Part shown: positions 3,537 through 44,605 of the stretch, piece after piece
Numbering within the stretch: the stretch's first letter is position 1
Layout: each line of letters starts with the position of its first letter
Virus record (IMG/VR): IMGVR_UViG_3300029117_000001
Coordinates: 3,829-67,828 of that record
Reading direction: 5' to 3' (one strand)
Source of the DNA: a virus
DNA: 64,000 nucleotides
Program-made: the position numbers and the translations under genes
Notes under the pieces: generated by a model
Database searches by the model: none
Seen by the model: only the letters and a program-made list of their open reading frames with translations
Told to the model about the DNA's origin: nothing

Positions 3537-4298
3537 ATGTCCGTTGGAATCGAGCAGTCTTATCTTACATCTGAGGATAAGGGCGATTCTCCAAAAGATG
3601 AAAGTTTCAAGACACCAACGGCAGATGGAAAATCGCTTCAAGTCGACCTTGAATTTTCTTATAAATTCGATCAGAGCAGAGTAACTGATGTATTTACTCA
3701 GTTCAAAGGTCAATCCGGGGAATCTGTGAAAAATACTTTTATTAAGCCTAAGATGAAAGCATGGACGCAGGAAGTAACTGCGAAGTATCCAGTAACAGAT
3801 GTTTTCGGTGATAAACGCCAGGAACTGAATGAAGCACTTGACGAATATCTTAAGCAGAAGTTTGAGCCATACGGAATTATTATTGATACAGTAAACTTTA
3901 CTTCCATTTCCACTGATGATGAAACACAGGCTGCAATCCAAAAGAAGGTAAATGCACAGCAAGAATTAGAACTTGCTAACATTGAAGCTAAAACAGCCAA
4001 AGTACAAGCTGATAAAGATAAAGAAGTTGCACTGATTGCTGCTGAAAAGGAAAAGGAGAAAGCATCTATCCAAGCGGAACAGGCCAAAATTGATGCAGAA
4101 GGTAAAGCTGAAGCTATTAAGATTAAAGCAGAAGCTGAAGCAGAAGCAAATAGAAAAATCGCAGAATCTCTTACTCCCGAACTGATTGAAAAACAGAAAA
4201 TTGATAAATGGAATGGTGAAGTACCAAAAATTCAAGGAAGTAACACTTCTACTATCGTAGATACAAGAGATATGACAGCTGATGAGAATGCTGAATAA
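3537..4298 (+). CDS. SPFH/band-7 (prohibitin/flotillin/YqiK-like) domain protein; appears to lack the N-terminal membrane anchor
   Basis: The segment TADGKSLQVDLEFSYKFDQSRVTDVF resembles the conserved SPFH core (TKDNLxVxVDAVVxYRI); a long Ala/Glu/Lys-rich coiled coil (AEKEKEKASIQAEQAKIDAEGKAEAIKIKAEAEAEA) is typical of this family. Weak RBS. Confidence 0.55.
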   Translation: MSVGIEQSYLTSEDKGDSPKDESFKTPTADGKSLQVDLEFSYKFDQSRVTDVFTQFKGQSGESVKNTFIKPKMKAWTQEVTAKYPVTDVFGDKRQELNEALDEYLKQKFEPYGIIIDTVNFTSISTDDETQAAIQKKVNAQQELELANIEAKTAKVQADKDKEVALIAAEKEKEKASIQAEQAKIDAEGKAEAIKIKAEAEAEANRKIAESLTPELIEKQKIDKWNGEVPKIQGSNTSTIVDTRDMTADENAE

Positions 4299-4327
4299 TA
4301 AGTAAAACAGTCAAGAGAGCCACACGA

Positions 4328-4373
4328 GAGCCAGACTAAATCCTAAAAAGAAAGGAGGTCTGGCTCTATTTTT
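4328..4373 (+). terminator. terminator-like hairpin immediately upstream of terL, with the terL RBS inside the loop
   Basis: Perfect 9-bp stem GAGCCAGAC/GTCTGGCTC with a 21-nt loop containing AAAGGAGG, followed by TATTTTT and then the terL ATG. Confidence 0.45.
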
Positions 4374-6068
4374 ATGGGAAAAATTACAGAAGGCTCGCTT
4401 GAATGGTATCGGGCAGTGCTGAATCAGATTATCAGTAGTGACATGACAATCTATCAAAATCAAAAAGATTGCCTTGATTTGCTCTTAAATATGAATATTG
4501 ACCTTCCTTTCAACAAGAACCAAGAATCACGGAAAATGGCTATGAAAGTAAGTCAATACTCACATAACATAGCAGAGAAGTGTGCCGCATTAACTGGAAG
4601 TGGTAATTTTGACGATATCTATTGGCAGTATTTGCTACTGGAAGCACCACATTTATTTGAAAGTTACTTGCTTTATATGGAAAAAAATAGACCGGACAGC
4701 AAGAAATTTTATATTCCACGAAAAAAAACACTGCATGTGGTAGCCAAAGACCTACAAGATTTGGAAGAAAGAAAGATAGAGTTTTACGGCTTATCACTTC
4801 CAAGCCGTGTTGGAAAATCCACTATGTGTATTTTCTTTATGTCATGGATAATGGGAAAAAGACCGAATAGTCATAGCGCCATGGGTGGTCATTCTGGAAA
4901 ACTGGCAAAAGGATTTTACGGAGAACTTCTTAACCTCATTAATACACAGGAATACAACTACAGTGAAATTTTTCCGCAATCGAAACTTCAAAAACAGAGT
5001 GCTGATGATTTTGAAATAAACCTGGACAAACCAGACCGATTTGCAACAATGACTTGCCGTGGTATTGAAGGTACTTGGACAGGTGCCGTTGATATTTCTT
5101 CTGATGGGTATTTGTACGTGGATGACCTTGTAAGAGATAGGCAACATTCATTAAGCCCTACCCGATTGGAAAATACATATCAAGAATATCTGAACAAGAT
5201 GGTTGACCGTAAGATTGATGGTGCAAGAGAACTTATGGTTGGAACCAGATGGAATTTATATGACCCTCTTGGAAAAATCGAGAAGCTAAATCGGGATAAT
5301 CCAATGTATCGGTTTAGAAAAATTCCAGCTTTGAACGATGATGGTGAATCCAATTTCGATTATGAGTATGGCGTTGGATTTTCAACAAAATATTATGTTG
5401 ATATGAAAGCTAGGCTAGACGCTAACGAATGGGAAGCTAAATATCAGCAAAAGCCCTTCTTGCGTGAAGGAATTGTGTTTGCAGCTGATGAATTGAGATA
5501 TTATAACGGCGTTCTTCCAGAAGGTGGATTTGTTAAAAATGTTTCTGCTTGCGATGTTGCGTGGGGTGGTGGCGATAGCTTATCAATGCCAGTGGGTGCA
5601 GAATACGAAAATGGAGATGTATATATTTATGATTGGATTTTTAGCACAGCACCAAAAGAAGGAACATTGCCATTAGTTGTTGGAAGAATCATGGGAAATA
5701 ATATTCAATCCATTAATTTTGAAGCAAATAATGGTGGAGATATGTATGCCTATTATGTAAACGAACGCTTGAAAGAACATAAATACGCTTGCAGCACGAC
5801 AAGTACAAAAGCACCTTCAAAACAAGCAAAAAAAGAAAAAATAAATCAATATTCCGGGGATGTTAAGCAAAATTTTATATTTTTGGCTCCGAAATATCAA
5901 GATAAACAGTATCAAAAGGCTATGGATGAATTAACTACATTCGTCTATATTGGTGATAATGAACATGATGACGCTGCCGATGGAGTTACGCAGCTTGCAA
6001 TAACGCTTGCCGGCAAAAGATTTGCAGAAGTAAAAGCAACCAAAAATTTTATGTGGGGAAGGAGATAG
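4374..6068 (+). CDS. terL: terminase large subunit
   Basis: 564 aa; Walker A-like P-loop GLSLPSRVGKST; C-terminal acidic nuclease-type residues (VGDNEHDDAADGV); lies upstream of the portal gene. Confidence 0.85.
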   Translation: MGKITEGSLEWYRAVLNQIISSDMTIYQNQKDCLDLLLNMNIDLPFNKNQESRKMAMKVSQYSHNIAEKCAALTGSGNFDDIYWQYLLLEAPHLFESYLLYMEKNRPDSKKFYIPRKKTLHVVAKDLQDLEERKIEFYGLSLPSRVGKSTMCIFFMSWIMGKRPNSHSAMGGHSGKLAKGFYGELLNLINTQEYNYSEIFPQSKLQKQSADDFEINLDKPDRFATMTCRGIEGTWTGAVDISSDGYLYVDDLVRDRQHSLSPTRLENTYQEYLNKMVDRKIDGARELMVGTRWNLYDPLGKIEKLNRDNPMYRFRKIPALNDDGESNFDYEYGVGFSTKYYVDMKARLDANEWEAKYQQKPFLREGIVFAADELRYYNGVLPEGGFVKNVSACDVAWGGGDSLSMPVGAEYENGDVYIYDWIFSTAPKEGTLPLVVGRIMGNNIQSINFEANNGGDMYAYYVNERLKEHKYACSTTSTKAPSKQAKKEKINQYSGDVKQNFIFLAPKYQDKQYQKAMDELTTFVYIGDNEHDDAADGVTQLAITLAGKRFAEVKATKNFMWGRR

Positions 6069-6071
6069 AAT

Positions 6072-6494
6072 ATGATGACTGCAACTCAATATTTACGCCA
6101 GATTGAAAATTATGATAACAGAATCAAAAACAAGCTTATCGAAGAAGAACAGCTCATTTCTCTTTCCACAAGTGTATCTGCAATTCCTGTTGGAGAAAAG
6201 GTACAAACTTCTGTAAAACGTGATCCGATGGGAGACATGATTGCGAAGATATTTGATCTGCGAGAAGAGATTTCAGAAATGATATCTGAATTTTTACAAA
6301 AAAGACAAGAAATAGTCCGAACTATAGAACAGGTTGAAGATCCATTACTATATGACATATTATTTAAGCACTATGTTGAGTACAAATCTTTGGTTCGCAT
6401 TGCAGATGAGATGGGTTATTCAGAGATTCACATTAAAAAAAAGCATTTAAAAGCCATAGCAGAAATAAAAAAGATAAAAGGTTTCGAAAGATGA
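6072..6494 (+). CDS. ArpU/RinA-like (sigma-70 region 4-like HTH) putative late transcriptional activator
   Basis: 140 aa; the C-terminus YDILFKHYVEYKSLVRIADEMGYSEIHIKKKHLKAIAEI has the sigma region 4 HTH pattern; size matches the ArpU/RinA family. Placement after terL is atypical. Confidence 0.4.
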   Translation: MMTATQYLRQIENYDNRIKNKLIEEEQLISLSTSVSAIPVGEKVQTSVKRDPMGDMIAKIFDLREEISEMISEFLQKRQEIVRTIEQVEDPLLYDILFKHYVEYKSLVRIADEMGYSEIHIKKKHLKAIAEIKKIKGFER

Positions 6495-6517
6495 TACCGA
6501 AGTATACTGAAAAATAC
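6493..6517 (+). promoter_or_regulatory. copy A of a 25-nt recurring motif GATACC-N-GTATACTGAA-N-ATAC
   Basis: GATACCGAAGTATACTGAAAAATAC; near-identical copies at 18247 and 31787, all at gene boundaries and all followed by a hairpin-T structure. Confidence 0.4.
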
Positions 6518-6545
6518 TTTTAATATGTGTAGAATATAAAGTAGA

Positions 6546-6579
6546 GCATTGGATTAAAATATCCAGTGCTTTTTATTTT
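6546..6579 (+). terminator. intrinsic terminator-like hairpin upstream of the portal gene
   Basis: GCATTGGAT/ATCCAGTGC stem (one G-U pair) followed by TTTTTATTTT. Confidence 0.5.
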
Positions 6580-6588
6580 GCAGAAAGG

Positions 6589-8085
6589 ATGGTTCGGCTC
6601 GTGAGAAATACAATGAATTTTGTAGATTTATGCCGAGGTGATTTCGGGCGAAAAGTAGCCTACACAGGCGTTGACCGAATCACTCCACAAAATGTAGTAA
6701 AAGTAGTATCAGATACAATTGGCATACATAATAAAAATCGAACATTGATTGATTACTTGTATCGGTACATGAAAGGCGATCAGCCAATATTGTACCGAAA
6801 TAAAATAGTCCGTCCAGAAGTTAATAACAGAGTGGTTGAAAATCACGCATTTGAAACCGTGAAGTTTAAAGCTGGACAGATTTGCGGGGAACCAATCCAA
6901 TATGTATGTAAAAAGAAAAATGCAGATAAAAAAATAAATGAGCAAGTTGATTTGCTGAATGATTATCTTGATGAAGCCAATGCAGATGCAAGAAACATCC
7001 AGAGAGCAATATACCAAAGTGCAACAGGAACTTCTTATAAGGCTATTCTGAAAGAAGAGGACTGGACAGAAAACGGAGATTTACCGCCGTTTAGAATCTT
7101 TATTCCGTATCCTGGTGATTGTTACATTGTATATTCGCAGAGGAACGGAAAACCAATGCTGTCCGTTCAGATTTTGAAGGATGAAGATGAGCAACAATAC
7201 TACTTATGTTATTCAAAGAACCAGTTTTTCAAAATCACGAATGGAAAAGTAACCGAATATGGAATCAACGGTTTTGGTGGGATTCCTATTGTTGAATGCC
7301 CGAATAATCATGACAGACTTTCGGACGTTGAAATTGCAATCACATTATTTGATGCAATCAACAAATACCAGTCTGATAGATTAAATGGCGTTGAACAGTT
7401 TGTGCAAGCCTTTATGAAGTTCAAGAACTGCGAGGTAGATGAAAACGAGTTTTTGAAAATGGTAAAACTTGGTGCCATCTCTGTAAAAGATACTGGAAAT
7501 GGCTGTCAGTCGGATGTTGAACTGATGACCGCTGAATTGAATCAATCAGAGAGCCAGGTTGCAAAGGATGATATCTACAATAACATGCTGATTGTGGAAG
7601 CAATGCCAAACCGCCAAAGCAATAGCGGAGGGGATACAGGAAATGCTGTATACCTTCGTAATGGATGGGACTTCGCAGAAAGAGATGCAAAATTGGTAGA
7701 AGCATTTACCAAGGAAGCTGAAAAGGAATCTGCTAGAATTATTCTGAATATTATCCGTGGTACATCAAATGATGTTAATATCTCAACCCGAGATTTTGAT
7801 GTAAAGATAACCAGAAACCCAACAGACAATATGCTTGTAAAAGCACAGGCACTTGATTATCTGTTTAAAAATAAAATTCATCCGCTTATTGCACTGATTA
7901 CTTGCGGTTTATTTAGTGATCCGCAGAAAGTCTACGAAATGAGTTTACCGTATCTGGGAACTATTTACCCGGAACTGGCAGACCCGGAAGCGGAAATGCA
8001 GAAAGCACAGCAATTACTTGACGGAAAGTTTCAAAATCCGTCCAAAACAGAACCAATGGCAAATTCTCCATCTAACGAAGAATGA
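6589..8085 (+). CDS. portal protein (SPP1 gp6-like family)
   Basis: 498 aa; gene order terL-portal-scaffold-capsid; the N-terminal region resembles SPP1-type portals. The exact start is uncertain (GTG at 6601 is an alternative). Confidence 0.8.
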   Translation: MVRLVRNTMNFVDLCRGDFGRKVAYTGVDRITPQNVVKVVSDTIGIHNKNRTLIDYLYRYMKGDQPILYRNKIVRPEVNNRVVENHAFETVKFKAGQICGEPIQYVCKKKNADKKINEQVDLLNDYLDEANADARNIQRAIYQSATGTSYKAILKEEDWTENGDLPPFRIFIPYPGDCYIVYSQRNGKPMLSVQILKDEDEQQYYLCYSKNQFFKITNGKVTEYGINGFGGIPIVECPNNHDRLSDVEIAITLFDAINKYQSDRLNGVEQFVQAFMKFKNCEVDENEFLKMVKLGAISVKDTGNGCQSDVELMTAELNQSESQVAKDDIYNNMLIVEAMPNRQSNSGGDTGNAVYLRNGWDFAERDAKLVEAFTKEAEKESARIILNIIRGTSNDVNISTRDFDVKITRNPTDNMLVKAQALDYLFKNKIHPLIALITCGLFSDPQKVYEMSLPYLGTIYPELADPEAEMQKAQQLLDGKFQNPSKTEPMANSPSNEE

Positions 8086-8250
8086 ACCAAATTTCGATTA
8101 TTTAAGGAGTTTTAGAGAAATCTAAGGCTTCTTTTTTAATACCCAAAATCAAATAAATTGCAACAGCCCGTGAGCGTAAATCGGGTACAGACCATGTGCG
8201 GAGCGAACCGTGTTGAAAAAGCGTATTGGACTGGAAGAAAGGAGATTTCA

Positions 8251-8898
8251 ATGACAAGAGAACAGGCAAAACAGGCACTTATCGGTATGGGAGTTGCAGA
8301 ACCTTCCGAGGAACAGGTTTCTAAGCTTCTTGATTCTATTTCTGCTGAAACTAAGAAAGAGAAAGACAAAAATGTTTCTCTGAAGGAAAAAGCTGAAAAA
8401 GCAGATTCCCTGGAAAAAGAGTTGGAAGATTTGAAAAAGCAGAACATGACCGAAGCAGAACGGCTAGAAGCTGAACGCAAGAAAGAAAAGGAAGCAGTGG
8501 ATAAGGAGTTAGCTGATTTGAAAGCTGCGCTTGCAGAATCCAACAAAAAAGCCCTTACCAGTGAAATTACTTCTATGTTCGCAAATGCAGGACTTTCAAC
8601 CGAAACATACGCGAGTGCTATTAAAGCATACGCATCTGCACCGTATGAGAAACCAGAAGATGCAATGAAAGAAGTCGAAACTTTTGTTAAGGGAGTTTCC
8701 GAAGCAAATAAAACAGCACTTGATACCGCAAAAGCAGCTTGGGAGAAAGAAGCATTGGAAAATACTCCTAATCCAGGAGGCGGTAGCGGTGGCAAACAGG
8801 AAAAAACTAGTAAAGCGTCTGAGTACGCTAAACAGTATTCGGCACGCATGAACCCAGATGCAAAACCGGCTGATGATAATGCACCAGCTAATTTCTAA
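8251..8898 (+). CDS. head scaffolding protein
   Basis: Strong RBS GAAAGGAG 7 nt upstream of ATG 8251; Glu/Lys/Ala-rich coiled coil throughout; sits between the portal and capsid genes. Confidence 0.6.
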   Translation: MTREQAKQALIGMGVAEPSEEQVSKLLDSISAETKKEKDKNVSLKEKAEKADSLEKELEDLKKQNMTEAERLEAERKKEKEAVDKELADLKAALAESNKKALTSEITSMFANAGLSTETYASAIKAYASAPYEKPEDAMKEVETFVKGVSEANKTALDTAKAAWEKEALENTPNPGGGSGGKQEKTSKASEYAKQYSARMNPDAKPADDNAPANF

Positions 8899-8917
8899 GA
8901 AAAGGAGATTTTAAAAC

Positions 8918-9262
8918 ATGGCTTTCATGAAAATTAAGCAGTACGAATCTACCCCGAATATCCTTGAATCTGAGGTAGGACTTGTACTCAAAACTTACAC
9001 AGCAGATCAGACAAATGCAGTTGCAGTTAATGACAGAAAAATTATTAAGGCAGGTTCCGTATACCCAACAAACGCAACCGGCGCAAAAGGTCTTGTGTTT
9101 GAAGATGTGGATATGACAGACGATGAGAAGCGTCCAATTTCCGTTATTGTTGCCGGACGTGTCCTAGAAGACCGACTTCCCGCAACTGTTGACACAACTG
9201 CAAAAACTGAATTACAGGCACTTGGAATTGTGTTTGTAGAAGAAACCGAAGTTGTATTTTAA
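8918..9262 (+). CDS. head decoration protein (lambda gpD-like, ~114 aa)
   Basis: Size and position immediately upstream of a lambda gpE-like major capsid gene mirror the lambda D-E gene pair. Inference from synteny. Confidence 0.45.
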   Translation: MAFMKIKQYESTPNILESEVGLVLKTYTADQTNAVAVNDRKIIKAGSVYPTNATGAKGLVFEDVDMTDDEKRPISVIVAGRVLEDRLPATVDTTAKTELQALGIVFVEETEVVF

Positions 9263-9277
9263 GGAGGATAATAAGCA

Positions 9278-10312
9278 ATGGCATACAATGTATTAGAAGC
9301 AATCAGCGAGGAAGAAAGACTTAATTTCTCCCAGAATTTCTCTGTTAAAAGACCTGGAATCCTTGATACCATTTTCCCGGATGTAAAAACAGATTACTGG
9401 AAGGCTGAATACTACAGACTTATGAGCGGACAGCGGCTTCCGGAAATCGCATTTGTACATGCCCTTGACACCGAAGCAGAAATCGGTTCCAGACCTGGTT
9501 TTGAAAAGGTGTTGACCGAGAAACTTCTCATTAAAAGGAAGCTCAATCAGTCCGAGAGCTTACAACAGGCTATCGAGAACGGTGTACCAGATAATGAGGA
9601 ACTTACAGACTTTGTATTCGATGACGCGACAAACCTTTTTGAGGCCGTCCTTGCCAGAACCAAAGTTATGAAAGGCCAGGCACTGTCTACTGGAAAACTT
9701 GTTATCAAAGAAAACAAAGTGGACATGACTATTGATTTTGGAGTTCCGTCTGAATTAAAAATTACCATTACAGACTGGTCTAAACCAGATTCTGATATTA
9801 TGGGTGATATTCAGAAAATGGTTCAGCTTGCAGAAGATGGCGGATATGTTGTCAATAAGGCAATTACCTCTCTTAAAATGATTAACAACATGAGAAACAA
9901 CACCGGAATGCAGACCGCAGTTCTTGGAGCTGCAAATAAACGTCTTCTGACGAAACAGGAGCTTGCGAACCTTCTCATGCAGGAGTACGGAATTACAATT
10001 GATCGCTGTGACGAAAAGTTCCGTTACAGAAGCAAAGGCATTGTTAAAACAGGTAGATATTTCAAAGAAGATGTATTTACCCTGTATGAATCTAACCAGG
10101 ATGGTTCTTTTGGTACTGGACTTTGGGGCGCAACACCAGAGGAAAAAGAGTACCGTCAGTTCATTCAGCAGCAAAACCGTTCCTTTATTACCATGTCCAT
10201 GTGGGCTACGCCAGATCCAGTTGCAGTATGGACGAAAGCTTCTGGAATGTTCATCCCGGTTGTACCGAAAGCAAACGGCGGTATCGTGATCGGTACCAAG
10301 GCGGGGGAATAA
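9278..10312 (+). CDS. major capsid protein (lambda gpE-like family)
   Basis: 344 aa, which matches lambda gpE (341 aa); lies downstream of the scaffold and decoration genes; strong RBS AAGGAGGA. Confidence 0.75.
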   Translation: MAYNVLEAISEEERLNFSQNFSVKRPGILDTIFPDVKTDYWKAEYYRLMSGQRLPEIAFVHALDTEAEIGSRPGFEKVLTEKLLIKRKLNQSESLQQAIENGVPDNEELTDFVFDDATNLFEAVLARTKVMKGQALSTGKLVIKENKVDMTIDFGVPSELKITITDWSKPDSDIMGDIQKMVQLAEDGGYVVNKAITSLKMINNMRNNTGMQTAVLGAANKRLLTKQELANLLMQEYGITIDRCDEKFRYRSKGIVKTGRYFKEDVFTLYESNQDGSFGTGLWGATPEEKEYRQFIQQQNRSFITMSMWATPDPVAVWTKASGMFIPVVPKANGGIVIGTKAGE

Positions 10313-10948: not shown

Positions 10949-11260
10949 ATGGGATGTGAACACGAGTGTATCAACGAACACCGCTTGGAAGAATTGGAAA
11001 ATGCCGTCCGTGAGATGAAAGAAAAGCATTCCAAAAGGGATGAAGGCTTTTTTAATCGTATCAATGCGCTAGAACAGAAAATTGCTTTATACAACAACGA
11101 TCTGGGACACATCAAAGATACAGTTGACGAAATGAACGACAATTTAAAAGCACTCATGGAAAAACCAGGAAAATTACAGGACAAAATTATTGCTTATGTC
11201 ATAACTGGCATAATCGGTATTATTTTAGGCTTTGCCCTTAAAGGCATTTTCCCGGTGTAA
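10949..11260 (+). CDS. XhlA-like protein (coiled-coil N-terminus plus C-terminal transmembrane helix)
   Basis: Leucine-zipper-like N-terminus, then AYVITGIIGIILGFALKGIFPV as a single C-terminal TM helix. The architecture matches haemolysin XhlA-type lysis-associated proteins. Confidence 0.45.
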   Translation: MGCEHECINEHRLEELENAVREMKEKHSKRDEGFFNRINALEQKIALYNNDLGHIKDTVDEMNDNLKALMEKPGKLQDKIIAYVITGIIGIILGFALKGIFPV

Positions 11261-11291: not shown

Positions 11292-11531
11292 ATGGATAAT
11301 TATAAAGACTTTTCGGAAGATGAAAGAATCTTCTATTTGCGTGAAGCTGGATTTGATTCCAGAGAAAAAGAGTTATTCCGATTGCGTGTTTACGAAGAAA
11401 AAACACTTGCAGAAGCTTCAGAAATCATGGGTTACAGCACAAGAACAGTAGACCGCATAAACAGAAAATTAAAGAAGAAAATTATGAAAGTCGCCCCGAT
11501 GTATTGTCGGGGCTTTTCTTTGTATTCATAA
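11292..11531 (+). CDS. sigma-70 region 4-like HTH protein (candidate late regulator)
   Basis: RBS AGGGAGGACGGTGGA; LAEASEIMGYSTRTVDRINRKLKKKI is a classic sigma region 4 / LuxR-type HTH. Confidence 0.5.
   Translation: MDNYKDFSEDERIFYLREAGFDSREKELFRLRVYEEKTLAEASEIMGYSTRTVDRINRKLKKKIMKVAPMYCRGFSLYS
11492..11522 (+). terminator. rho-independent terminator
   Basis: GCCCCGA-GTATT-TCGGGGC hairpin followed by TTTTCTTT; overlaps the 3' end of the preceding CDS. Confidence 0.6.
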
Positions 11532-11621
11532 AATGTGGCGTATTTATGGCGTTATCATGGCGTGTTAATCAACCTCTTATTATTGTAAAATATAGTTATA
11601 AAAACAAGGGAGGTTTGAGAT

Positions 11622-12119
11622 ATGCAGTATGGTAATCCGTATTTTGCGCAACCATTTCAACAAATACAGCCGTATCAAGATAGATTAGCACAATTACAGA
11701 ATAGTTATCAGCAGGCAATGCCATACGGACAGGCACAGATTCAGCAACCAATACAACAAATGCCACAAGTGCCACAAATCCCCATGTTGCAAGGGCAGAT
11801 GGTTGATGGCATTGATACCGTAAAGGCAAAAGACGTAGATATGTCTGGAAACCCTGTCTATTATCCAAAAACAGATGGAACAGAAATATATAGAAAACAA
11901 TTACAGGCAGATGGAAGAAGTAGAATTTTTGTTTATCGACTTATAAATCCGGAAGAACAACAGCAACCAAAGGTAGAAGAAAAACAGATTGACATAGAAG
12001 CTATGTTTAATCAACTTCGGAACGATGTTTGTTCTGAGATTTCCGAAATAAAGAGTATGTTCCCGACCCAAATGTCGGGAACATCGGAACCAAGGCAGAA
12101 TGGAGGTAAACAGAGATGA
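11622..12119 (+). CDS. Gln/Pro-rich low-complexity protein
   Basis: RBS AGGGAGG; the N-terminus is dominated by Q/P/Y repeats (QPFQQIQPYQ, QIQQPIQQMPQVPQIPMLQGQ). Confidence 0.45.
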   Translation: MQYGNPYFAQPFQQIQPYQDRLAQLQNSYQQAMPYGQAQIQQPIQQMPQVPQIPMLQGQMVDGIDTVKAKDVDMSGNPVYYPKTDGTEIYRKQLQADGRSRIFVYRLINPEEQQQPKVEEKQIDIEAMFNQLRNDVCSEISEIKSMFPTQMSGTSEPRQNGGKQR

Positions 12120-12361
12120 ATTTTAGTCCAAACGCCATGATGAAAAAGCAATTTGAGAAAATGATTACTCAGAGGTTCGGAAGTGTTGATAACATGATGA
12201 ACGATATGAGCAAATTTGCAGGAAATAATCCAACATTAAAAAATGCGTTGGATTTATATAAAAAAGGTGACGCAAGTCAATTGCATCAAATCCAACAGAA
12301 TGTTTTTGAAGAAAAGCATTTATCTCCAGATGGAATTATACAGAAATTCCTTGGATTATAA
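12116..12361 (+). CDS. hypothetical small protein
   Basis: ORF whose start overlaps the upstream stop (ATGA overlap). Confidence 0.35.
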   Translation: MNFSPNAMMKKQFEKMITQRFGSVDNMMNDMSKFAGNNPTLKNALDLYKKGDASQLHQIQQNVFEEKHLSPDGIIQKFLGL

Positions 12362-12457
12362 CACTTCCCCATAATTGGGTGATTAAGAATCGCTACAATT
12401 TGGGACGACAGCCGCGGATGTCTCCTATTGTAAATAAAATTTAAGGAGACTAAAAAC

Positions 12458-13264
12458 ATGATGAATGGTTCAAATTACAGCCTTAGCGACATTGCAGCTG
12501 CTACAGGCTCTAATAACCGTGCAAATGACATGTGGGGCGGCGATGGTTTTTCCCTTATCTGGCTTGTCCTTATTTTCGCAATCTTCGGCTGGGGCGGTTT
12601 CGGCGGCTTTGGCGGCTGGGGTGGCAATGGTGGAAACGGTACAAATGGTGCAGGTTTCCAAGGATGGGCTACCCGTTCAGATATTAATGAGGAATTCGCC
12701 CTTAATGATATTCAGAATGGTATCAGAGGTATTCAGCAGGGTATCTGTGACAGCACATATTCTCTTAACAATACCATGCAGAGTGGCTTTAATGGTATGA
12801 ATGTTGGAATGCTTCAGGGCTTCAACGGCGTTCAGCAGGCAATCAATGCTGATACTGTAGCCGGTATGCAGAATACCAACGCATTACAGTCTCAGTTAGC
12901 AAACTGTTGCTGTGAAACAAGAGAAGCAATCCAGGGCATCAATTATAACCTTGCTACCAACACTTGTGCTCTCCAGAACACAATGAACAACAATACCAGA
13001 GATCTTCTGGAAAACCAGAACAGCAACACAAGAGCAATCCTTGACTTCTTGACTAACGATAAGATTGCAACATTACAGGCAGAGAACTCTGATCTGAAAC
13101 GTGCTGCATCCCAGGATCGCCAGTCTGCATTGCTTACAACAGAGATGTATGCACAGGCTCAGAGATTAATCAATGCAATCAACCCGGCTCCGATTCCTGC
13201 ATTCCAGGTTCCAGCTCCATATGCATACGCAGGATGTAATACATATGGTAACGGTTGTTGCTAA
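12458..13264 (+). CDS. Gly/Asn/Gln-rich membrane-anchored low-complexity protein with a C-terminal Cys cluster
   Basis: RBS AAGGAGA; one TM helix (LIWLVLIFAIFGW) followed by GGFGGFGGWGGNGGNGTNG (YjcZ-like glycine run); N/Q-rich repeats; CCC and a C-terminal GCC; its own terminator downstream. Confidence 0.5.
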   Translation: MMNGSNYSLSDIAAATGSNNRANDMWGGDGFSLIWLVLIFAIFGWGGFGGFGGWGGNGGNGTNGAGFQGWATRSDINEEFALNDIQNGIRGIQQGICDSTYSLNNTMQSGFNGMNVGMLQGFNGVQQAINADTVAGMQNTNALQSQLANCCCETREAIQGINYNLATNTCALQNTMNNNTRDLLENQNSNTRAILDFLTNDKIATLQAENSDLKRAASQDRQSALLTTEMYAQAQRLINAINPAPIPAFQVPAPYAYAGCNTYGNGCC

Positions 13265-13296
13265 GTAACTCACCCTTAGAGGTTGACTAAATTCTA

Positions 13297-13330
13297 AGAG
13301 GTGGGTTGCGGCTCACCTCTTATTTTGATT
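13297..13330 (+). terminator. rho-independent terminator
   Basis: AGAGGTG-10 nt-CACCTCT hairpin followed by TATTTTGATT. Confidence 0.6.
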
Positions 13331-13343
13331 GAGAGGTAGAAAT

Positions 13344-13769
13344 ATGAGTTGTAAAAATGTTTGTAAGCTCTGCAACCGTCTTGTAATAAGCCAAGCTGTT
13401 GCGTTTACAGGAGGTAATCTTGTAATCACACTCCCAGCAGGCAGTTACAACAATGGAGAGAAATATTGTATTGTTGTTGCACAAAGTATACCAGAAGCCA
13501 CTACAATTACTGCTCCGGTAATGATTCAGATAGGAACAGGAACAACTTTGTATCCGCTAGAAAATCGTTGCTGTGCACAGATTACGGCTTGTGGAATAAG
13601 AACCAGAACGAAGTACGCAACCAGAGTAGCTACAAGTGCAACTGGCGGAGTATTCAAGATGTTAGGAAATCCGGCTTGTAGTCCGAGCAACAATTTGAAA
13701 GCAATTAATGGTACAGCCCCAACGACAGAAGCACCTGTTACGCAGGCTGTTAGAAAGGGGGCACTGTAA
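13344..13769 (+). CDS. Cys-containing Thr/Ala-rich hypothetical protein
   Basis: RBS GAGAGGTAGAA; 11 Cys including CKNVCKLC and CCAQITAC. Confidence 0.45.
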   Translation: MSCKNVCKLCNRLVISQAVAFTGGNLVITLPAGSYNNGEKYCIVVAQSIPEATTITAPVMIQIGTGTTLYPLENRCCAQITACGIRTRTKYATRVATSATGGVFKMLGNPACSPSNNLKAINGTAPTTEAPVTQAVRKGAL

Positions 13770-14401
13770 TGCATAAAGTTGCAATGGAAATGGGAAAATG
13801 GGCTATGGAAAAAGCCAAAACACATGGCTTTGATAATCTCAGTGCTCAAGACTGGGACGATCTGAAAGACTGCATGGAAGTAGTAAAATGTGCGATTTGC
13901 GCTGATAAGGATTACAGAATCGTAGAAGCTATGGACGAATGCGAACAGGAAGAAAAGTATCTTGGACGCATGGGATATGACCGTTACCGCTATTCAAATG
14001 GGCGTTTCGCTCCAAAAGGTAGGGGAACCAGAAAAGGATATAGACCGTATCTGTATATGCAGGATGATGACTGGATGGATGAGTATTTAAACAATCCAGA
14101 GTTTGAGCGCAATATGTACCGCATGGGATATCATCCAGATCGTAGTGATATGGAAAATGATGGTATGAATATGAATTGGAAGAAATCCAGATATGGCGAA
14201 TCCTATGATAGATACGATGAGAATCGTAGGCACTATCATGATTCCAAAGATACGGAATCCAAAAGAAAAATGGATGATTCCATGAAGGAGTATACGTCTG
14301 ACATTATCCGTAATCTCACGGAAATGTGGTCAGATGCAGATGCAACGCTCAGACAGTCAATGAAAACTGACCTGACCAGACTTGTACAGCAGATGAACTA
14401 G
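13769..14401 (+). CDS. Arg/Tyr/Asp/Met-rich charged hypothetical protein
   Basis: Start overlaps the upstream stop; unusual composition (RYRYSNGR, RKGYRPYLYMQDDDWMDEY); followed by a terminator. Confidence 0.45.
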   Translation: MHKVAMEMGKWAMEKAKTHGFDNLSAQDWDDLKDCMEVVKCAICADKDYRIVEAMDECEQEEKYLGRMGYDRYRYSNGRFAPKGRGTRKGYRPYLYMQDDDWMDEYLNNPEFERNMYRMGYHPDRSDMENDGMNMNWKKSRYGESYDRYDENRRHYHDSKDTESKRKMDDSMKEYTSDIIRNLTEMWSDADATLRQSMKTDLTRLVQQMN

Positions 14402-14420
14402 AGCAATAAATGAATTAAGT

Positions 14421-14456
14421 CCTTGTCGCAAATTAATGCGGCAGGGGCTTTTTTCG
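14421..14456 (+). terminator. terminator-like hairpin
   Basis: CCTTGTCGC ... GCGGCAGGGG imperfect stem followed by CTTTTTTCG. Confidence 0.5.
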
Positions 14457-14477: not shown

Positions 14478-14864
14478 ATGCTACGAAAATTTTACATGAA
14501 TGGGGATTTATGGAGAGTGCAGTTTGTTCCATCACAAGATGATGTTTTAATTGACCGTACAGGAAACAGAACACTTGGAGTATCGGATTATTCCACCCAT
14601 ATTATTTCGATTGCGAATAACCTACATGGAGAACTTTTGAACCGTGTATTTATCCATGAGTTAGGACATTGTGTAATGTTCAGCTATGGATTACTGCCAG
14701 AGCTTCACCGCATGACCAAGAAACGATATTGGGTGGATGCAGAGGAATTTGTATGCAATATTCTGGCAGACTACGGACAGTTTGTTATTAGAACAACAAG
14801 AGATATTTTGGGAAACAAATTTACATACGTTTCGCCTGTTGGAATGGAAAGGATGACTGCATGA
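14478..14864 (+). CDS. small HEXXH zinc-metallopeptidase-like protein
   Basis: HELGHC motif (HExxH); 128 aa; RBS AAAGGATGG. Confidence 0.5.
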   Translation: MLRKFYMNGDLWRVQFVPSQDDVLIDRTGNRTLGVSDYSTHIISIANNLHGELLNRVFIHELGHCVMFSYGLLPELHRMTKKRYWVDAEEFVCNILADYGQFVIRTTRDILGNKFTYVSPVGMERMTA

Positions 14865-18368: not shown

Positions 18369-18770
18369 ATGCCAGACACAATAGAATCTCCTGTATTAGA
18401 AGTTTTTTCAAGATGGGGAGCGGCTGTTTCTAAGATTACCGGCGCAGACAATTATTCCATGGACGGAAGCGAAACAAATGCTTCTGGCAAAAAAGCATAT
18501 GCACAGCTTTATATGCTCGGAAATCCAATTACGAGAGGTGACCTCGAAGGAGATGAATGCGCAACAATGCCATCATTTCAAGTAAACTGCTTCACGTCTG
18601 GGAGCAAAGCACTAACCAGAGTGTATGAATTGGACAAGATAAGTCACAAAACTATGGTGAGCATGGGATTCCGCCGCACATACGGACCGGAACCCATGTT
18701 TTTTGGTGACAGTGGAATCAAAAAGCTTGTTAGTCGATACAGCCGGATATATACAGGAAAATTACTTTGA
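18369..18770 (+). CDS. hypothetical protein (possible tail-completion protein)
   Basis: RBS GGTGACAGATATG; synteny only. Confidence 0.35.
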   Translation: MPDTIESPVLEVFSRWGAAVSKITGADNYSMDGSETNASGKKAYAQLYMLGNPITRGDLEGDECATMPSFQVNCFTSGSKALTRVYELDKISHKTMVSMGFRRTYGPEPMFFGDSGIKKLVSRYSRIYTGKLL

Positions 18771-18828
18771 AACCAATGAACGCATAGACGTTCTTTTTTT
18801 ATGCTTAAAACGAAAGCGAGGTGAGATT

Positions 18829-19122
18829 ATGGATCAGATTTTAAGCTATGTAAAGCCAGAATTACTTGTTGTCGTTGTATTTCTTTATTTCATCGGAGAA
18901 ATTATTAAAAAGTCAGAGAATATTTCTGACAAATTTATTCCAATGATTTTAGGAATTCTTGGTGTATTAATTTGCGGTCTTTATGTTTTTGCAACATCTA
19001 CGATTTCCGGTTCACAGGAAGTTGCAATGGCGCTGTTTACTGCAATTACACAAGGAATTATCGTTGCTGGATTAAGTACTTATGTAAATCAGCTTATTAA
19101 GCAGTCTGGAAAAGAAGAGTAG
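18829..19122 (+). CDS. holin-like small membrane protein (two TM helices)
   Basis: RBS GCGAGGTGAG; 97 aa with two hydrophobic helices (LLVVVVFLYFIGEII; ILGILGVLICGLYVFA) and a charged C-terminus. Confidence 0.45.
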   Translation: MDQILSYVKPELLVVVVFLYFIGEIIKKSENISDKFIPMILGILGVLICGLYVFATSTISGSQEVAMALFTAITQGIIVAGLSTYVNQLIKQSGKEE

Positions 19123-20253: not shown

Positions 20254-20577
20254 ATGGATTCTACACCAGCTGAATTAAAACCTTATCTCGAAGCTGAAAA
20301 GATACGTCAAAAGAGAAGAGACGCTGAGCTTTGGCAAGCGGGCATTTATGAAACATCAGCCACATTCACAGCTGTTGCAAATGCTTTAATGGGAAAAAAA
20401 TCCAAGGCAGAGTATTTGAAAAAACCTTTACTGGAATCAGCAGAGGAAGAAAAGCGTAAACAGGAAGGTATACTTTCCGAAGAAGAAAAGAAAAAACAGA
20501 GAAATGCACTTTTGGCAAGCTTGCAACTCATGCAGGCGAACTTTGAGCTTAACCATGAAAAGGGCAGGCAGGATTAA
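20254..20577 (+). CDS. second tail-chaperone-region protein (gpT-like position)
   Basis: Lys/Glu-rich; lies between gpG-like gene and TMP. No obvious slippery-site fusion to the upstream ORF. Confidence 0.4.
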   Translation: MDSTPAELKPYLEAEKIRQKRRDAELWQAGIYETSATFTAVANALMGKKSKAEYLKKPLLESAEEEKRKQEGILSEEEKKKQRNALLASLQLMQANFELNHEKGRQD

Positions 20578-20603
20578 CACTCTTGTCTGCCCTTTATTTT
20601 TTT
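20562..20603 (+). terminator. terminator-like hairpin immediately upstream of the TMP start
   Basis: GGGCAG-19 nt-CTGCCC followed by TTTATTTTTTT; the stop codon of the preceding CDS lies in the loop. Confidence 0.5.
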
Positions 20604-20626
20604 GTAAAAAAGGAGGGACAAATAAA

Positions 20627-25440: not shown

Positions 25441-25565
25441 ACCGTTAATTTTGGTAAAACCAACAGGCTAGACCGATCATCGAAAAGCGGAAATGCCTTG
25501 CCGCCTGCCTGTTGATTTACATACAGTTCAAGGCACTCTTTTATACGAAAGGCAGGTATCAATCT

Positions 25566-27929: not shown

Positions 27930-27992
27930 TGCTTTCGGAATGCGTCCCAAAGTGGTACAATGTGGGTATCAAATATTGGGAGGTACGTATGT

Positions 27993-28926: not shown

Positions 28927-28958
28927 AGGCTAGGGATTTCTCCCTAGCCTTTATTTTA
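28927..28958. terminator. bidirectional terminator between convergent genes
   Basis: Perfect AGGCTAGGGA/TCCCTAGCCT hairpin followed by TTATTTTAG. Confidence 0.55.
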
Positions 28959-29852: not shown

Positions 29853-29934
29853 ATGCGTTTTCCTCCCTAAATCAGTATGATATACATATTTTACCACTCC
29901 AAAATGAATAGTGGAATAGGAAATTTGAAAAAAA

Positions 29935-29962
29935 TAACGATTCATCAAAATGACGAATCGTC
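29935..29962. other. 11-bp-stem palindrome; terminator-like for minus-strand transcripts
   Basis: ACGATTCATCA-AAA-TGACGAATCGT (one mismatch); on the minus strand it is followed by a T-run. Confidence 0.35.
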
Positions 29963-30302: not shown

Positions 30303-30426
30303 AAAACAGCCGTAGCACCGACCAAAGCACAAACGACTGTTTAAGCAACCAGAAGTCTCACATCTGGTAATCAATATCTTATCATTTGTGAGACTTCTTT
30401 TCAAGAGAAAAGGAGTATTTTTTTAT

Positions 30427-44604: not shown

Positions 44605-44605
44605 A

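What the first reader, a model, noticed from the sequence alone, without database searches (positions are those of the whole stretch)
11622..14456. Terminator-delimited cassette of low-complexity proteins inside the head-tail region
The cassette sits between the terminator at 11492-11522 and the one at 14421-14456, with an internal terminator at 13297-13330. It encodes a Gln/Pro-rich protein, a Gly/Asn-rich membrane-anchored protein (GGFGGFGGWGGNGGNG after a TM helix, with CCC and a C-terminal GCC), an 11-Cys Thr/Ala-rich protein and an Arg/Tyr/Asp/Met-rich protein. None resembles standard virion proteins. The compositions recall spore-coat, exosporium or cell-surface low-complexity proteins and YjcZ-like glycine runs. 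Placement between connector and neck genes, with private terminators, suggests a highly expressed moron or decoration cassette.
Basis: partly seen in the sequence, partly recalled or inferred. Interest (0 to 1): 0.6.

Follow-up and report, generated by a model that had tools for sequence, protein, structure and literature searches.

The report
Conserved mobile gut-phage membrane-protein gene module
The cassette is real, but it is the core of a larger gene module of unknown function, under strong selection, that is shared by many phages of gut anaerobes and is built around a membrane-anchored cysteine-rich helical protein; it is not a loose set of spore-coat-like oddities.

Summary
The ORFs, their compositions and the three terminator hairpins are present as described. 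Corrections: there are five ORFs, not four, and the Cys-rich protein has 8 Cys, not 11. All five genes are under strong purifying selection (dN/dS 0.05-0.12, like the capsid gene). The same gene order recurs in about 40 loci from unrelated phages. That order is A, B, C, then D or a non-homologous D', then E. These phages infect Lachnospiraceae, Oscillospiraceae, Clostridium perfringens and Butyrivibrio. Protein C also occurs in Bacteroides and crAss-like phages. The module is larger than the flagged interval. It includes a peptidase: either the HExxH gene at 14478-14864 or, elsewhere, an alternative Cys/His/Asp protein. It often also includes the sigma-region-4 HTH and XhlA-like genes upstream. 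No component matches any Pfam, NCBIfam, PADLOC or PDB family above threshold. Structure predictions failed. The module sits at different genomic positions, often beside lysis genes. It is flanked or split by homing endonucleases and a group I intron. It is retained in every sufficiently long relative of this phage. My best reading, at low confidence, is a protease-matured protein assembly on the inner face of the cytoplasmic membrane late in infection. Conversion of spores or the cell surface is unlikely.

The parts
10949..11260 (+). XhlA-like small coiled-coil protein with a C-terminal membrane anchor. It accompanies the module in a subset of loci.
   Evidence: phrog_937 'hemolysin' E 3e-14. 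Pfam XhlA scores 19 bits, below its cut-off of 34.7. Hydrophobic peak at residues 80-98. Found upstream of the module in 7 of the first ~35 loci and in the window's relatives.
11292..11531 (+). Sig: a 79-aa sigma-70 region-4-like helix-turn-helix protein. It is a candidate regulator of the module.
   Evidence: Pfam Sigma70_r4 scores 29.8 bits, above its cut-off of 24.1. NCBI names it 'sigma factor-like helix-turn-helix DNA-binding protein'. Lies upstream of A in 14 of the first ~35 loci.
11493..11513 (+). Terminator-like hairpin closing the upstream transcription unit.
   Evidence: 9-bp stem with 6 GC pairs plus a T-run. dG -15.5 kcal/mol, z -3.7.
11587..11601 (+). Conserved AT-rich element (AAAAT-N4-5-KYATAA) directly upstream of the ribosome-binding site of the first module gene. 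It is a candidate promoter or translation-initiation signal specific to the module.
   Evidence: The strict pattern occurs 11 times in 416 kb of related loci, and 6 of those lie at the module's 5' boundary. The window has only 4 matches, which is chance level, and one of them is this site.
11622..12119 (+). A: Gln/Pro-rich N-terminus, then a conserved domain and a helical C-terminus.
   Evidence: phrog_21718 E 5e-18. Found in 30 of ~35 loci immediately before B. dN/dS 0.07. Its stop codon overlaps the start of B (ATGA).
12116..12361 (+).
   Evidence: Family found in 31 loci, always between A and C. The Dulem virus 35 homologue is phrog_22984. dN/dS 0.05.
12362..12457 (+). B-C spacer with two hairpins. 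The second pairs GUCUCCU with the AAGGAGAC ribosome-binding site of C.
   Evidence: MFE -24 kcal/mol, z -3.25, and none of 200 shuffles folds as well. Conservation in other loci was not tested.
12458..13264 (+). C: the core protein. It has an acidic N-tail, a roughly 35-residue uncharged Gly/aromatic-rich membrane segment, three long helices with invariant Cys (C97, CCC150-152, C170), and a Pro-rich, Cys-rich C-terminus.
   Evidence: phrog_16490 E 1e-66. At least 7962 homologues at 90% clustering. 2648 clusters at 50% identity, all 118-399 aa; the one listed entry with an extra (SGNH) domain looks like a miscalled chimera. Invariant columns. Helices from AlphaFold2 secondary structure, although the model itself is poor. 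Charge bias.
13295..13322 (+). Internal terminator-like hairpin after C.
   Evidence: 12-bp stem plus a T-run. dG -17.4 kcal/mol, z -5.1. A strong hairpin plus T-run lies between C and D/D' in 12 of 30 loci by a crude scan.
13344..13769 (+). D: Thr/Ala-rich, beta-rich protein with 8 Cys, including an N-terminal C-x3-C-x2-C. It is one of two non-homologous occupants of this slot.
   Evidence: 4904 homologues, none with a name or Pfam domain. C3, C10, C42 and C77 are invariant; C7, C76, C83 and C112 are nearly so. D occupies the slot in 10 of the first ~35 loci and D' in 20. hhalign of D against D' gives probability 0.3%.
13769..14401 (+). E: helical N- and C-terminal segments flanking a region rich in Arg, Tyr, Asp, Gly and Met. 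Its start overlaps the stop of D (TAATG).
   Evidence: 1456 homologues, none with a name or Pfam domain. Found in 25 loci after D or D'. The Dulem virus 35 homologue is phrog_28802. dN/dS 0.06.
14417..14450 (+). Strongest terminator-like hairpin, after E.
   Evidence: 14-bp stem plus T6. dG -26.1 kcal/mol, z -7.5.
14478..14864 (+). MP: small HExxH (HELGH) metallopeptidase-like protein.
   Evidence: phrog_1233 E 1e-11. Weak Pfam hits to M78, DUF6782 and SprT-like families, all below cut-off. One public source names it DUF3920. It follows E in about 20 loci and is mutually exclusive with an alternative Cys/His/Asp protein (CP, phrog_3754) in 12 loci.

Best explanation
The flagged cassette is the core of a self-contained, horizontally mobile phage gene module. 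Its fullest form is: XhlA-like, Sig, optional small ORF S, A, B, C, D or D', E, and a peptidase.

Shown:
- The gene order is conserved across unrelated phages of strictly anaerobic gut and rumen bacteria.
- Every gene is under strong purifying selection.
- The module carries its own boundary element and terminators.
- Two slots show non-orthologous replacement: D versus D', and a Zn-peptidase versus a Cys/His/Asp protein.

Inferred mechanism:
- The module is expressed late in infection.
- C is made in the largest amount, because a terminator follows it and it has a strong ribosome-binding site.
- C inserts into the cytoplasmic membrane through its Gly/aromatic-rich segment, with its helical Cys-rich domain facing the cytoplasm.
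- There C nucleates an assembly with the Cys-rich beta protein D (or D'), the low-complexity proteins A, B and E, and possibly the tail-anchored XhlA-like protein.
- The dedicated peptidase matures or dismantles this assembly.
- The assembly serves a membrane or envelope step of the lytic cycle, most likely linked to lysis or release. It does not alter spores or the cell surface.
For: Conserved order: A-B-C-(D|D')-E-peptidase is found in about 40 loci from genomes and phages. It is present in 69 of 69 sufficiently long relatives of this phage.

Selection: dN/dS is 0.05-0.12. Cassette proteins are 87-94% identical between two phages whose capsid proteins are 80% identical and whose XhlA-like proteins are 59% identical.

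Membrane anchor and topology: only C, and the XhlA-like protein, have a hydrophobic segment. Across 219 C homologues the N-tail is acidic (0.8 K/R against 3.1 D/E) and the C-flank is more basic, which weakly favours N-out/C-in. The partner proteins showed no hydrophobic stretch that could serve as a signal peptide.

Stoichiometry: a hairpin plus T-run follows C in 12 of 30 loci.

Peptidase requirement: MP and CP are mutually exclusive, about 20 loci against 12, with one locus holding both.

Lysis link:
- The module directly follows the holin/endolysin genes in bajarodcaudo virus 5, Dulem viruses 33 and 40, and Butyrivibrio phage Ceridwen.
- It follows a LysB-like gene in crAss cr52_1.
- An XhlA-like gene accompanies it in the window, in Dulem virus 35 and in several genome loci.
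- XP41-N3 has holin then XhlA-like about 3 kb upstream.
- The window has a Hol44 holin 4.4 kb downstream.

Importance of C: homing endonucleases flank it in at least 8 loci. A group-I-intron-like element with a GIY-YIG gene splits it exactly in the invariant CCC codons.
Against: - No component has a known function, and nothing here tests timing, localisation or interaction.
- Both AlphaFold2 models were poor (pLDDT 46 and 48), and fold searches gave nothing.
- The topology call rests on a weak charge bias.
- Adjacency to lysis genes is not universal. In the window and Dulem virus 35 the module lies in the head region, in XP41-N3 and Bacteroides phage C3_41T2LP among recombination genes, and in Dulem virus 36 after the receptor-binding protein.
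- The region after the lysis cassette is also the classic site for unrelated cargo genes.
- The window already has a canonical holin and an amidase endolysin, so no lysis function is obviously missing.
- CP is called a peptidase only from its invariant Asp-Cys, His and Asp residues.
- In Bacteroides and crAss-like phages only C is robustly detected.
Confidence: 0.35

Rival explanations
1. The module encodes virion components. These could be a disulfide- or metal-stabilised decoration, a fibre or spike (C as a coiled-coil shaft, D/D' as an exchangeable knob), or ejection proteins whose hydrophobic Gly-rich segment enters the host membrane during infection.
For: - In the window, in Dulem virus 35 and in crAss cr52_1 the module lies among structural genes.
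- A terminator after C resembles the attenuators that follow abundant structural genes.
- The D/D' swap resembles receptor-binding-domain swapping, and D' has a sub-threshold BclA_C (C1q/TNF-like) match.
- crAss annotators labelled C 'spike protein' or 'viral fiber'.
- The module is retained in all close relatives.
Against: - The position is not fixed relative to head or tail genes, and in several phages it lies outside the structural block.
- C is never convincingly fused to a virion domain across 2648 clusters.
- There is no similarity to any structural PHROG, Pfam or PDB family.
- The same module occurs in phages with and without a tape-measure gene: the window has one, and crAss-like phages are short-tailed (the latter from general knowledge).
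- The crAss labels probably reflect coiled-coil similarity only.
Confidence: 0.2
2. The module is a weapon in conflicts between phages or between phage and host. It could be a superinfection-exclusion system or an abortive-infection-type system, in which a membrane effector (C) is activated or regulated by a dedicated protease, with D/D' as an exchangeable specificity or sensor subunit.
For: - A membrane protein with an interchangeable protease (MP or CP) and an interchangeable middle subunit follows the logic of several defence systems, for example bacterial gasdermin with its protease. This comparison is from general knowledge.
- The module is mobile, has its own signals and often lies in cargo hot-spots after the lysis genes.
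- The window carries other exclusion cargo, an Ltp-like lipoprotein.
Against: - PADLOC gives no match above noise.
- C is predicted to be all-helical, which differs from the gasdermin fold (comparison from general knowledge).
- All 69 close relatives keep the module, and it is more conserved than the capsid gene. Conflict systems usually turn over quickly.
- It is present in crAss-like phages.
Confidence: 0.15
3. The module is a lysogenic-conversion cassette that adds coat-, exosporium- or surface-like low-complexity proteins to the spores or cell surface of spore-forming Clostridia.
For: - The compositions recall GerQ (Gln-rich), CotC/CotG (Tyr/Arg-rich), YjcZ (Gly-rich hydrophobic) and Cys-rich exosporium proteins. 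This comparison is from general knowledge.
- D' weakly matches the BclA C-terminal domain.
- Most hosts are Lachnospiraceae, Oscillospiraceae and Clostridium.
Against: - The full module is in a Butyrivibrio fibrisolvens phage, and C is in Bacteroides and crAss-like phages.
- No spore-related Pfam or NCBIfam family is hit at all.
- A, B, D, E and MP showed no hydrophobic stretch that could serve as a signal peptide.
- The module is embedded in, and co-oriented with, lytic-cycle operons.
Confidence: 0.05

Closest known systems
PBSX-type XhlA / XhlB / XlyA lysis cassettes of Firmicutes phages
   Same: The gene just upstream of the module is an XhlA-like tail-anchored coiled-coil protein (phrog_937 E 3e-14). 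The module is frequently adjacent to holin and endolysin genes.
   Different: A-E have no counterpart in PBSX-type cassettes. In the window the holin (18703-19122) and the amidase (38678-39604) lie elsewhere. The Pfam XhlA score is below threshold.
Spanins (lambda Rz/Rz1, P2 LysB/LysC)
   Same: C has an N-terminal membrane anchor, two or three long helices, conserved Cys and a Pro-rich C-terminus, and it often sits next to lysis genes. In crAss cr52_1 a LysB-like gene lies two genes upstream. The spanin features used for comparison are from general knowledge.
   Different: Most hosts, including the window's, are Gram-positive (CW_7 amidase and Ltp lipoprotein), so there is no outer membrane to fuse. 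The charge bias suggests the helical domain is cytoplasmic. No partner lipoprotein was seen. There is no sequence similarity to any spanin family in PHROGs or Pfam.
Bacillus/Clostridium spore coat and exosporium proteins (BclA, ExsY/CdeC, CotC/CotG, GerQ, YjcZ, YabG protease)
   Same: The compositional analogies hold component by component: Gln-rich, Tyr/Arg-rich, Cys-rich and Gly-rich hydrophobic proteins plus a dedicated small protease. D' has a sub-threshold BclA_C match.
   Different: The window's proteins match none of these families. The module occurs in phages of hosts that do not sporulate. Apart from C, the proteins show no hydrophobic stretch that could serve for export.
Morons (autonomous cargo transcription units in phage genomes)
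   Same: The module has its own terminators, a conserved 5' element and strong ribosome-binding sites. Its genomic position varies among phages. DNA-level mosaicism is visible: 84.6% identity to MT837776 across only about 2 kb, covering the end of the XhlA-like gene, Sig, A, B and C.
   Different: It has six to eight genes rather than one or two. It is fixed in all close relatives and is conserved at least as strongly as the capsid gene.

Membership tests
Pfam XhlA (PF10779), for the upstream gene 10949-11260 | HMM score at or above the gathering threshold of 34.7 bits | tested here: not met
   19.0 bits, E 0.0016. PHROG 937 'hemolysin' does match at E 3e-14.
Pfam XhlA (PF10779), for the upstream gene 10949-11260 | Small protein with a coiled coil and a C-terminal transmembrane segment | tested here: met
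   103 aa with a hydrophobic peak at residues 80-98 (Kyte-Doolittle 2.24). Multiple coiled-coil-type weak hits.
Sigma-70 family, for 11292-11531 | Region 4 helix-turn-helix | tested here: met
   PF04545 scores 29.8 bits, above its cut-off of 24.1.
Sigma-70 family, for 11292-11531 | Region 2 (core binding and -10 recognition), which a true sigma factor needs | tested here: not met
   The protein is 79 aa, and only region-4 and HTH models hit it.
YjcZ-family sporulation proteins, for the Gly-rich segment of C | Match to the NCBIfam or Pfam family model | tested here: not met
   C matches no NCBIfam family except a chance StbC hit at E 0.34, and no Pfam family.
BclA C-terminal domain (PF18573; C1q/TNF-like jelly-roll), for the D slot | HMM match for the window's protein D | tested here: not met
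   D has no BclA_C hit. hhalign of the D family against the D' family gives probability 0.3%.
BclA C-terminal domain (PF18573; C1q/TNF-like jelly-roll), for the D slot | HMM match for the alternative occupant D' in related loci | tested here: inconclusive
   The best score is 30.3 bits, below the cut-off of 38 (E 4e-7), covering profile positions 13-127 of 128. Only 3 of 17 members match at E<=0.01. A PDB profile search finds no BclA.
Spore coat / exosporium systems | Host forms endospores | tested here: not met
   The full module is in Butyrivibrio fibrisolvens phage Ceridwen. C is in a phage isolated on Bacteroides uniformis and in metagenomic crAss-like phages. That these hosts do not sporulate is from general knowledge.
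Spanins | Host has an outer membrane, and a partner outer-membrane lipoprotein (or lipobox) is present | tested here: not met
   The window phage has an Amidase_2+CW_7 endolysin and an Ltp lipoprotein, typical of Gram-positive hosts. None of A-E has a signal or lipobox-type hydrophobic N-terminus. A systematic search for embedded ORFs was not done.
Moron | Autonomous transcription signals flanking the insert | tested here: met
   Terminators before A, after C and after E. A conserved 5' element. No sigma-70 consensus promoter was flagged in 11514-11621.
Moron | Present in some and absent from other closely related phages | tested here: not met
   69 of 69 capsid-gene relatives with enough downstream DNA carry the complete module.
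Known anti-phage defence systems (PADLOC-DB) | Any component matching a defence-system HMM | tested here: not met
   Only noise-level hits: ZorA at E 0.006 on the helical part of C, and PD-T4-6 at E 0.014 on B.
Zn metallopeptidases (M78 ImmA/IrrE, SprT-like, DUF3920), for 14478-14864 | HExxH motif and a family HMM above threshold | tested here: inconclusive
   HELGH is present. All Pfam hits are below cut-off: M78 at 13.2 bits, DUF6782 at 14.1 and, for homologues, SprT-like at about 14. phrog_1233 E 1e-11. One NCBI record uses the name DUF3920.

The most novel reading that the evidence does not exclude
Phages of strict anaerobes carry a dedicated, protease-matured, membrane-tethered protein assembly that depends on cysteine or metal chemistry. 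It would be built from a Gly-rich anchored Asn/Gln-rich helical protein, a C-x3-C-x2-C beta protein, a prion-like Gln/Pro-rich protein and an Arg/Tyr-rich disordered protein. It would act as a condensate or scaffold that organises a late step of infection at the membrane, such as assembly, lysis timing or redox-gated release. This would be a new kind of phage-built intracellular structure, spread between phage lineages by homing endonucleases.
Probability: 0.12. Interest if true: 0.85.

Novelty: categorically new. Interest (0 to 1): 0.66.

Why it matters
The core protein family has at least 2648 clusters at 50% identity. The module is fixed in a very common ~80-kb human-gut phage lineage, and identical proteins are seen on hundreds to more than a thousand contigs. 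Yet every component is annotated 'hypothetical' and matches no curated family. The module has six to eight genes and is under selection as strong as that on the capsid gene. It moves between phages of Bacillota and, at least for C, Bacteroidota, and introns and homing endonucleases target it. A unit with those properties probably performs a step of the infection cycle in gut anaerobes that has no described counterpart in model phages. Cultured carriers exist: Clostridium perfringens phages XP41-N3, CPD1, 17DYC, HMD-PC1 and PMQ04, Butyrivibrio phage Ceridwen, and Bacteroides phage C3_41T2LP. The question is therefore directly testable.

Tried and rejected
- Family scans. A-E have no significant Pfam, NCBIfam or PADLOC family. 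PHROGs lists only 'unknown function' families for A and C, and none for B, D or E in the window.
- PDB sequence searches. D, C and profiles of D, D' and CP gave only chance hits.
- Structure prediction. AlphaFold2 gave pLDDT 48 for D (33-sequence alignment, at least 70% identity) and 46 for C (41 sequences). Foldseek against the PDB with these models gave no match below E 1.
- D against D'. hhalign found no relation.
- Rfam. Nothing credible in 10.8-15.3 kb.
- Literature. Searches for BclA/C1q in phages, DUF3920, the Bacteroides phage and the C. perfringens carrier phages found no functional or proteomic data on these genes.
- General late promoter. I considered that the AAAAT-N4-5-KYATAA element might be one and rejected it, because it is at chance frequency in the window.
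- Fusions. C-SGNH 'fusion' proteins P0072 and P0074 look like miscalled or chimeric contigs, given the SGNH-containing 703-aa gene nearby.
- Low-complexity ORFs by chance. I rejected this because dN/dS is 0.05-0.12.

Full report
**1. What is in the sequence**

Between 11.6 and 14.4 kb the + strand carries five tightly packed ORFs:
- A, 11622-12119, 165 aa.
- B, 12116-12361, 81 aa. Its start overlaps the stop of A (ATGA).
- C, 12458-13264, 268 aa.
- D, 13344-13769, 141 aa from the ATG.
- E, 13769-14401, 210 aa. Its start overlaps the stop of D (TAATG).

- A has 20 Gln and 8 Pro in its first 60 residues.
- C is 13% Asn and 12% Gly. Its single hydrophobic peak (LIWLVLIFAIFGW) runs into GGFGGFGGWGGNGGNG. 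It has CCC at 150-152 and ends in GCC.
- E has 15 Arg, 14 Tyr and 14 Asp in its central 110 residues.
- D has 8 cysteines, not 11.

The three hairpins with T-runs are real. They fold far better than shuffled sequence, with dG of -15.5, -17.4 and -26.1 kcal/mol and z-scores of -3.7, -5.1 and -7.5. The 96-nt spacer between B and C also folds unusually well (z -3.25). Its second hairpin pairs with the AAGGAGAC ribosome-binding site of C.

**2. These are real genes under constraint**

Against a related ~78-kb phage contig (L036), dN/dS values are A 0.07, B 0.05, C 0.11, D 0.09, E 0.06 and the downstream peptidase gene 0.12. The major capsid gene gives 0.08. The cassette proteins are 87-94% identical between the two phages. 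The capsid proteins are 80% identical and the XhlA-like proteins 59%.

Family sizes at 90% clustering:
- D has 4904.
- E has 1456.

An exhaustive profile search found 2648 clusters at 50% identity for C (1408 at E<=1e-10). All listed members are 118-399 aa. The only listed entry with an extra (SGNH) domain looks like a miscalled chimera, so no convincing domain fusions exist. Where public sources name these proteins at all, the name is 'hypothetical protein'.

**3. No known family**

- The window's A-E hit no Pfam, NCBIfam or PADLOC family above noise.
- PHROGs places A in phrog_21718 and C in phrog_16490 (E 1e-66). Both are 'unknown function'.
- PDB sequence and profile searches give only chance hits.
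- AlphaFold2 models of D and C were poor, with pLDDT 48 and 46. Only the secondary structure of C is usable: a helix at 31-43 and long helices at 85-109, 118-156 and 162-241.
- Foldseek with these models found nothing.

**4. The cassette is part of a larger conserved module**

I built profile HMMs from the window and from three annotated phages and searched about 40 loci. These came from GTDB genomes, GenBank phages and metagenome contigs. The same order, A-B-C-(D or D')-E, appears almost everywhere that C occurs in Bacillota-type loci.

Slot 4 has two occupants:
- The window's D, with its N-terminal C-x3-C-x2-C, fills it in 10 of the first ~35 loci.
- An unrelated ~140-aa protein D' fills it in 20 loci.
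- hhalign finds no relation between D and D'.
- D' has a sub-threshold match to the BclA C-terminal domain. The best is 30.3 bits against a cut-off of 38, and 3 of 17 members match.

After E comes a small HExxH protein, MP, in about 20 loci. In 12 other loci MP is absent. There, a ~125-aa protein with invariant Asp-Cys, His and Asp residues sits upstream of A (CP, phrog_3754; no Pfam or PDB hit). Only one locus has both. I read this as non-orthologous replacement of a peptidase. That CP is a peptidase is an inference.

Other accompanying genes:
- A sigma-70 region-4 HTH protein (window 11292-11531; PF04545 above threshold) precedes the module in 14 of the first ~35 loci.
- An XhlA-like tail-anchored protein (window 10949-11260) precedes it in 7 of those loci.
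- Both precede it in all close relatives of the window phage.
- Ten loci have an extra ~50-aa acidic ORF (S) before A.

In Bacteroides phage C3_41T2LP and in crAss-like phages only C is robustly detected, at E about 1e-64 against my family HMM. The gene after C and a nearby HExxH protein give only weak matches.

**5. Regulatory anatomy**

Immediately upstream of the first module gene, and usually right after a terminator, lies a conserved AT-rich element. Its full form is TATGCCAAAATTTAAGCATAAGGAGG. In the window it is AAAATATAGTTATAA at 11587-11601. A strict pattern for it occurs 11 times in 416 kb of loci, and 6 of those lie at this boundary. In the window it is otherwise at chance frequency. 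It is therefore not a general late promoter.

A strong hairpin plus T-run follows C in 12 of 30 loci by a crude scan. A-B and D-E have overlapping stop and start codons, which suggests translational coupling. C stands alone with a strong ribosome-binding site. I infer that C is made in excess over D, E and the peptidase.

**6. Mobility and context**

The window is a tailed phage with these landmarks:
- TerL at 4374-6068.
- Portal at 6589-8085.
- Capsid at 9278-10312.
- Tape measure at 20504-25303.
- Hol44 holin within 18703-19122.
- Amidase_2+CW_7 endolysin at 38678-39604.

The module sits between the capsid and tail genes. Elsewhere it sits in other places:
- Right after the holin/endolysin genes in bajarodcaudo virus 5, Dulem viruses 33 and 40, and Ceridwen.
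- After the receptor-binding protein in Dulem virus 36.
- Among recombination genes in XP41-N3 and C3_41T2LP.
- Before the capsid gene in Dulem virus 35.
- Beside a LysB-like gene in crAss cr52_1.

Only about 2 kb, spanning the end of the XhlA-like gene, Sig, A, B and C, is 85% identical at the DNA level to another gut phage contig.

Homing-endonuclease genes (HNH and GIY-YIG types) lie inside or next to C in at least eight loci. In L015 the C gene is interrupted exactly within the invariant CCC codons by 1.25 kb. That insert holds a GIY-YIG ORF and a sub-threshold Rfam group I intron match (34.6 bits, E 9e-7). The exon 1 side ends in T and the insert ends in G, as expected for a group I intron.

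Within the window's own lineage the module is not optional. Of 80 capsid-gene relatives in IMG/VR, all 69 with enough downstream DNA carry Xhl-Sig-A-B-C-D-E-MP. I take the other 11 to be cut short by contig ends; I did not check each one. What varies is downstream. The 105-aa gene (with the 703-aa SGNH protein that follows it in the window) is present in 22 of 80, and a second MP copy in 11.

**7. Hosts**

Genome hits are in Lachnospiraceae (one isolate, Lachnospira intestinalis), Blautia, Oscillospiraceae and other Clostridia. A few MAGs belong to Bacteroidales, Collinsella and Mollicutes. Cultured carrier phages infect Clostridium perfringens, Butyrivibrio fibrisolvens and Bacteroides uniformis.

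No hit occurs among the many phages of aerobes and facultative anaerobes in the 50,697-record collection. The module thus appears confined to phages of strict anaerobes. This could reflect ecology rather than function.

**8. Mechanism (inference)**

Only C and the XhlA-like protein have a hydrophobic segment. A, B, D, E and MP showed no hydrophobic stretch that could serve as a signal peptide.

Across 219 C homologues:
- The ~27-residue N-tail is acidic, with 0.8 K/R against 3.1 D/E.
- The uncharged segment is about 35 residues long, 32% Gly and 23% aromatic.
- The following 20 residues carry more positive charge (1.8 K/R).

This weakly favours N-out/C-in, or a re-entrant anchor, with the Cys-rich helical domain in the cytoplasm beside its partners.

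I therefore propose a membrane-tethered cytoplasmic assembly. C would nucleate it. D or D' would join through the cysteine clusters, which may bind metal: CCC...C in C, and C-x3-C-x2-C in D. A, B and E would contribute low-complexity regions. The dedicated peptidase would process the assembly. The recurrent neighbourhood of XhlA-like, holin, endolysin or LysB-like genes points to a role in the lysis or release step.

This last step is the weakest. Confidence in the whole mechanism is about 0.35. Confidence that this is a conserved, selected, mobile multi-gene module is above 0.9.

**9. Rivals**

- A virion role (decoration, fibre or ejection complex) fits the structural-gene context in some phages, the attenuator after C and the D/D' swap. 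It does not fit the variable position or the lack of any structural-family similarity.
- A conflict system (exclusion or abortive infection) fits the membrane-effector-plus-protease logic. It does not fit universal retention and capsid-like conservation.
- The spore or surface-conversion idea does not fit the presence of the module in phages of Butyrivibrio and Bacteroides, which do not sporulate. It also does not fit the lack of export signals or the absence of any spore-family match.

**10. Verdict**

The spore and surface idea is probably wrong, and the boundaries were drawn too narrowly. As far as these libraries and literature searches reach, the module matches no described system.

Noticed in passing
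L015:1604-2856 (Firmicutes bacterium CAG:882 scaffold): The C homologue is split exactly within the invariant CCC codons by a 1.25-kb insert. The insert carries a GIY-YIG endonuclease ORF (1701-2567) and a sub-threshold Rfam group I intron match (2541-2777, 34.6 bits, E 9e-7). The exon 1 side ends in T and the insert ends in G. It is probably a self-splicing intron.
   Followed up: partly
L013, L018, L019, L031, L032, L002 (9109-9903), L005 (4847-5467), L004 (7778-8356), L041 (6073-6624): HNH-type homing-endonuclease-like genes sit between B and C, between C and D/D', or beside the module in many unrelated loci. This suggests homing-driven spread of the module.
   Followed up: partly
window:18703-19122: A Hol44-family holin (PF16079, E 6e-28) is encoded among the head-tail joining and tail-tube genes. 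It lies about 20 kb from the Amidase_2+CW_7 endolysin at 38678-39604. The lysis genes of this phage are scattered.
   Followed up: no
window:12362-12457: The B-C spacer folds into two hairpins (z -3.25). The second sequesters the ribosome-binding site of C, which could be a translational control. Conservation in other loci was not examined.
   Followed up: no
window:14861-17293: A 105-aa gene (phrog_19695) plus a 703-aa protein with a weak C-terminal GDSL/SGNH hydrolase match form a variable insert after the module. The 105-aa gene is present in only 22 of 80 close relatives, and other genes or nothing replace it elsewhere. A domain like the 105-aa protein matches the 708-aa protein of Ceridwen (L002 1383-3509).
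   Followed up: partly
window:25512-31188: Cargo genes lie inside the tail region. They are an HNH endonuclease (25512-26783) just after the tape-measure gene, an Ltp-type surface lipoprotein (27960-28919; this family is known for superinfection exclusion), a Big_2 protein on the opposite strand (28956-29948) and an AntA/ORF6C antirepressor (30388-31188).
   Followed up: no
window:39632-40333 (-) and 44558-45760 (+): A LytTR-type response regulator lies on the minus strand just after the endolysin gene. An IS605 OrfB/TnpB-like gene (Cas12f-like TNB domain) lies further on.
   Followed up: no
L008:8087-8156 (-): A type II hammerhead ribozyme (62.8 bits, above the gathering score of 37) lies about 2 kb downstream of the module in a Lachnospiraceae MAG contig.
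   Followed up: no
L004 (crAss cr52_1), annotated CDSs at 3751-9449: Translation with the standard bacterial code gives in-frame stop codons in the annotated CDSs. This is consistent with the stop-codon reassignment known in some crAss-like phages. C had to be read through such stops.
   Followed up: no
P0072, P0074: Some database gene calls fuse the N-terminal two thirds of C to an SGNH/GDSL hydrolase domain. They are probably chimeric contigs or frameshifted calls, given the SGNH protein near the module, but this was not checked.
   Followed up: no
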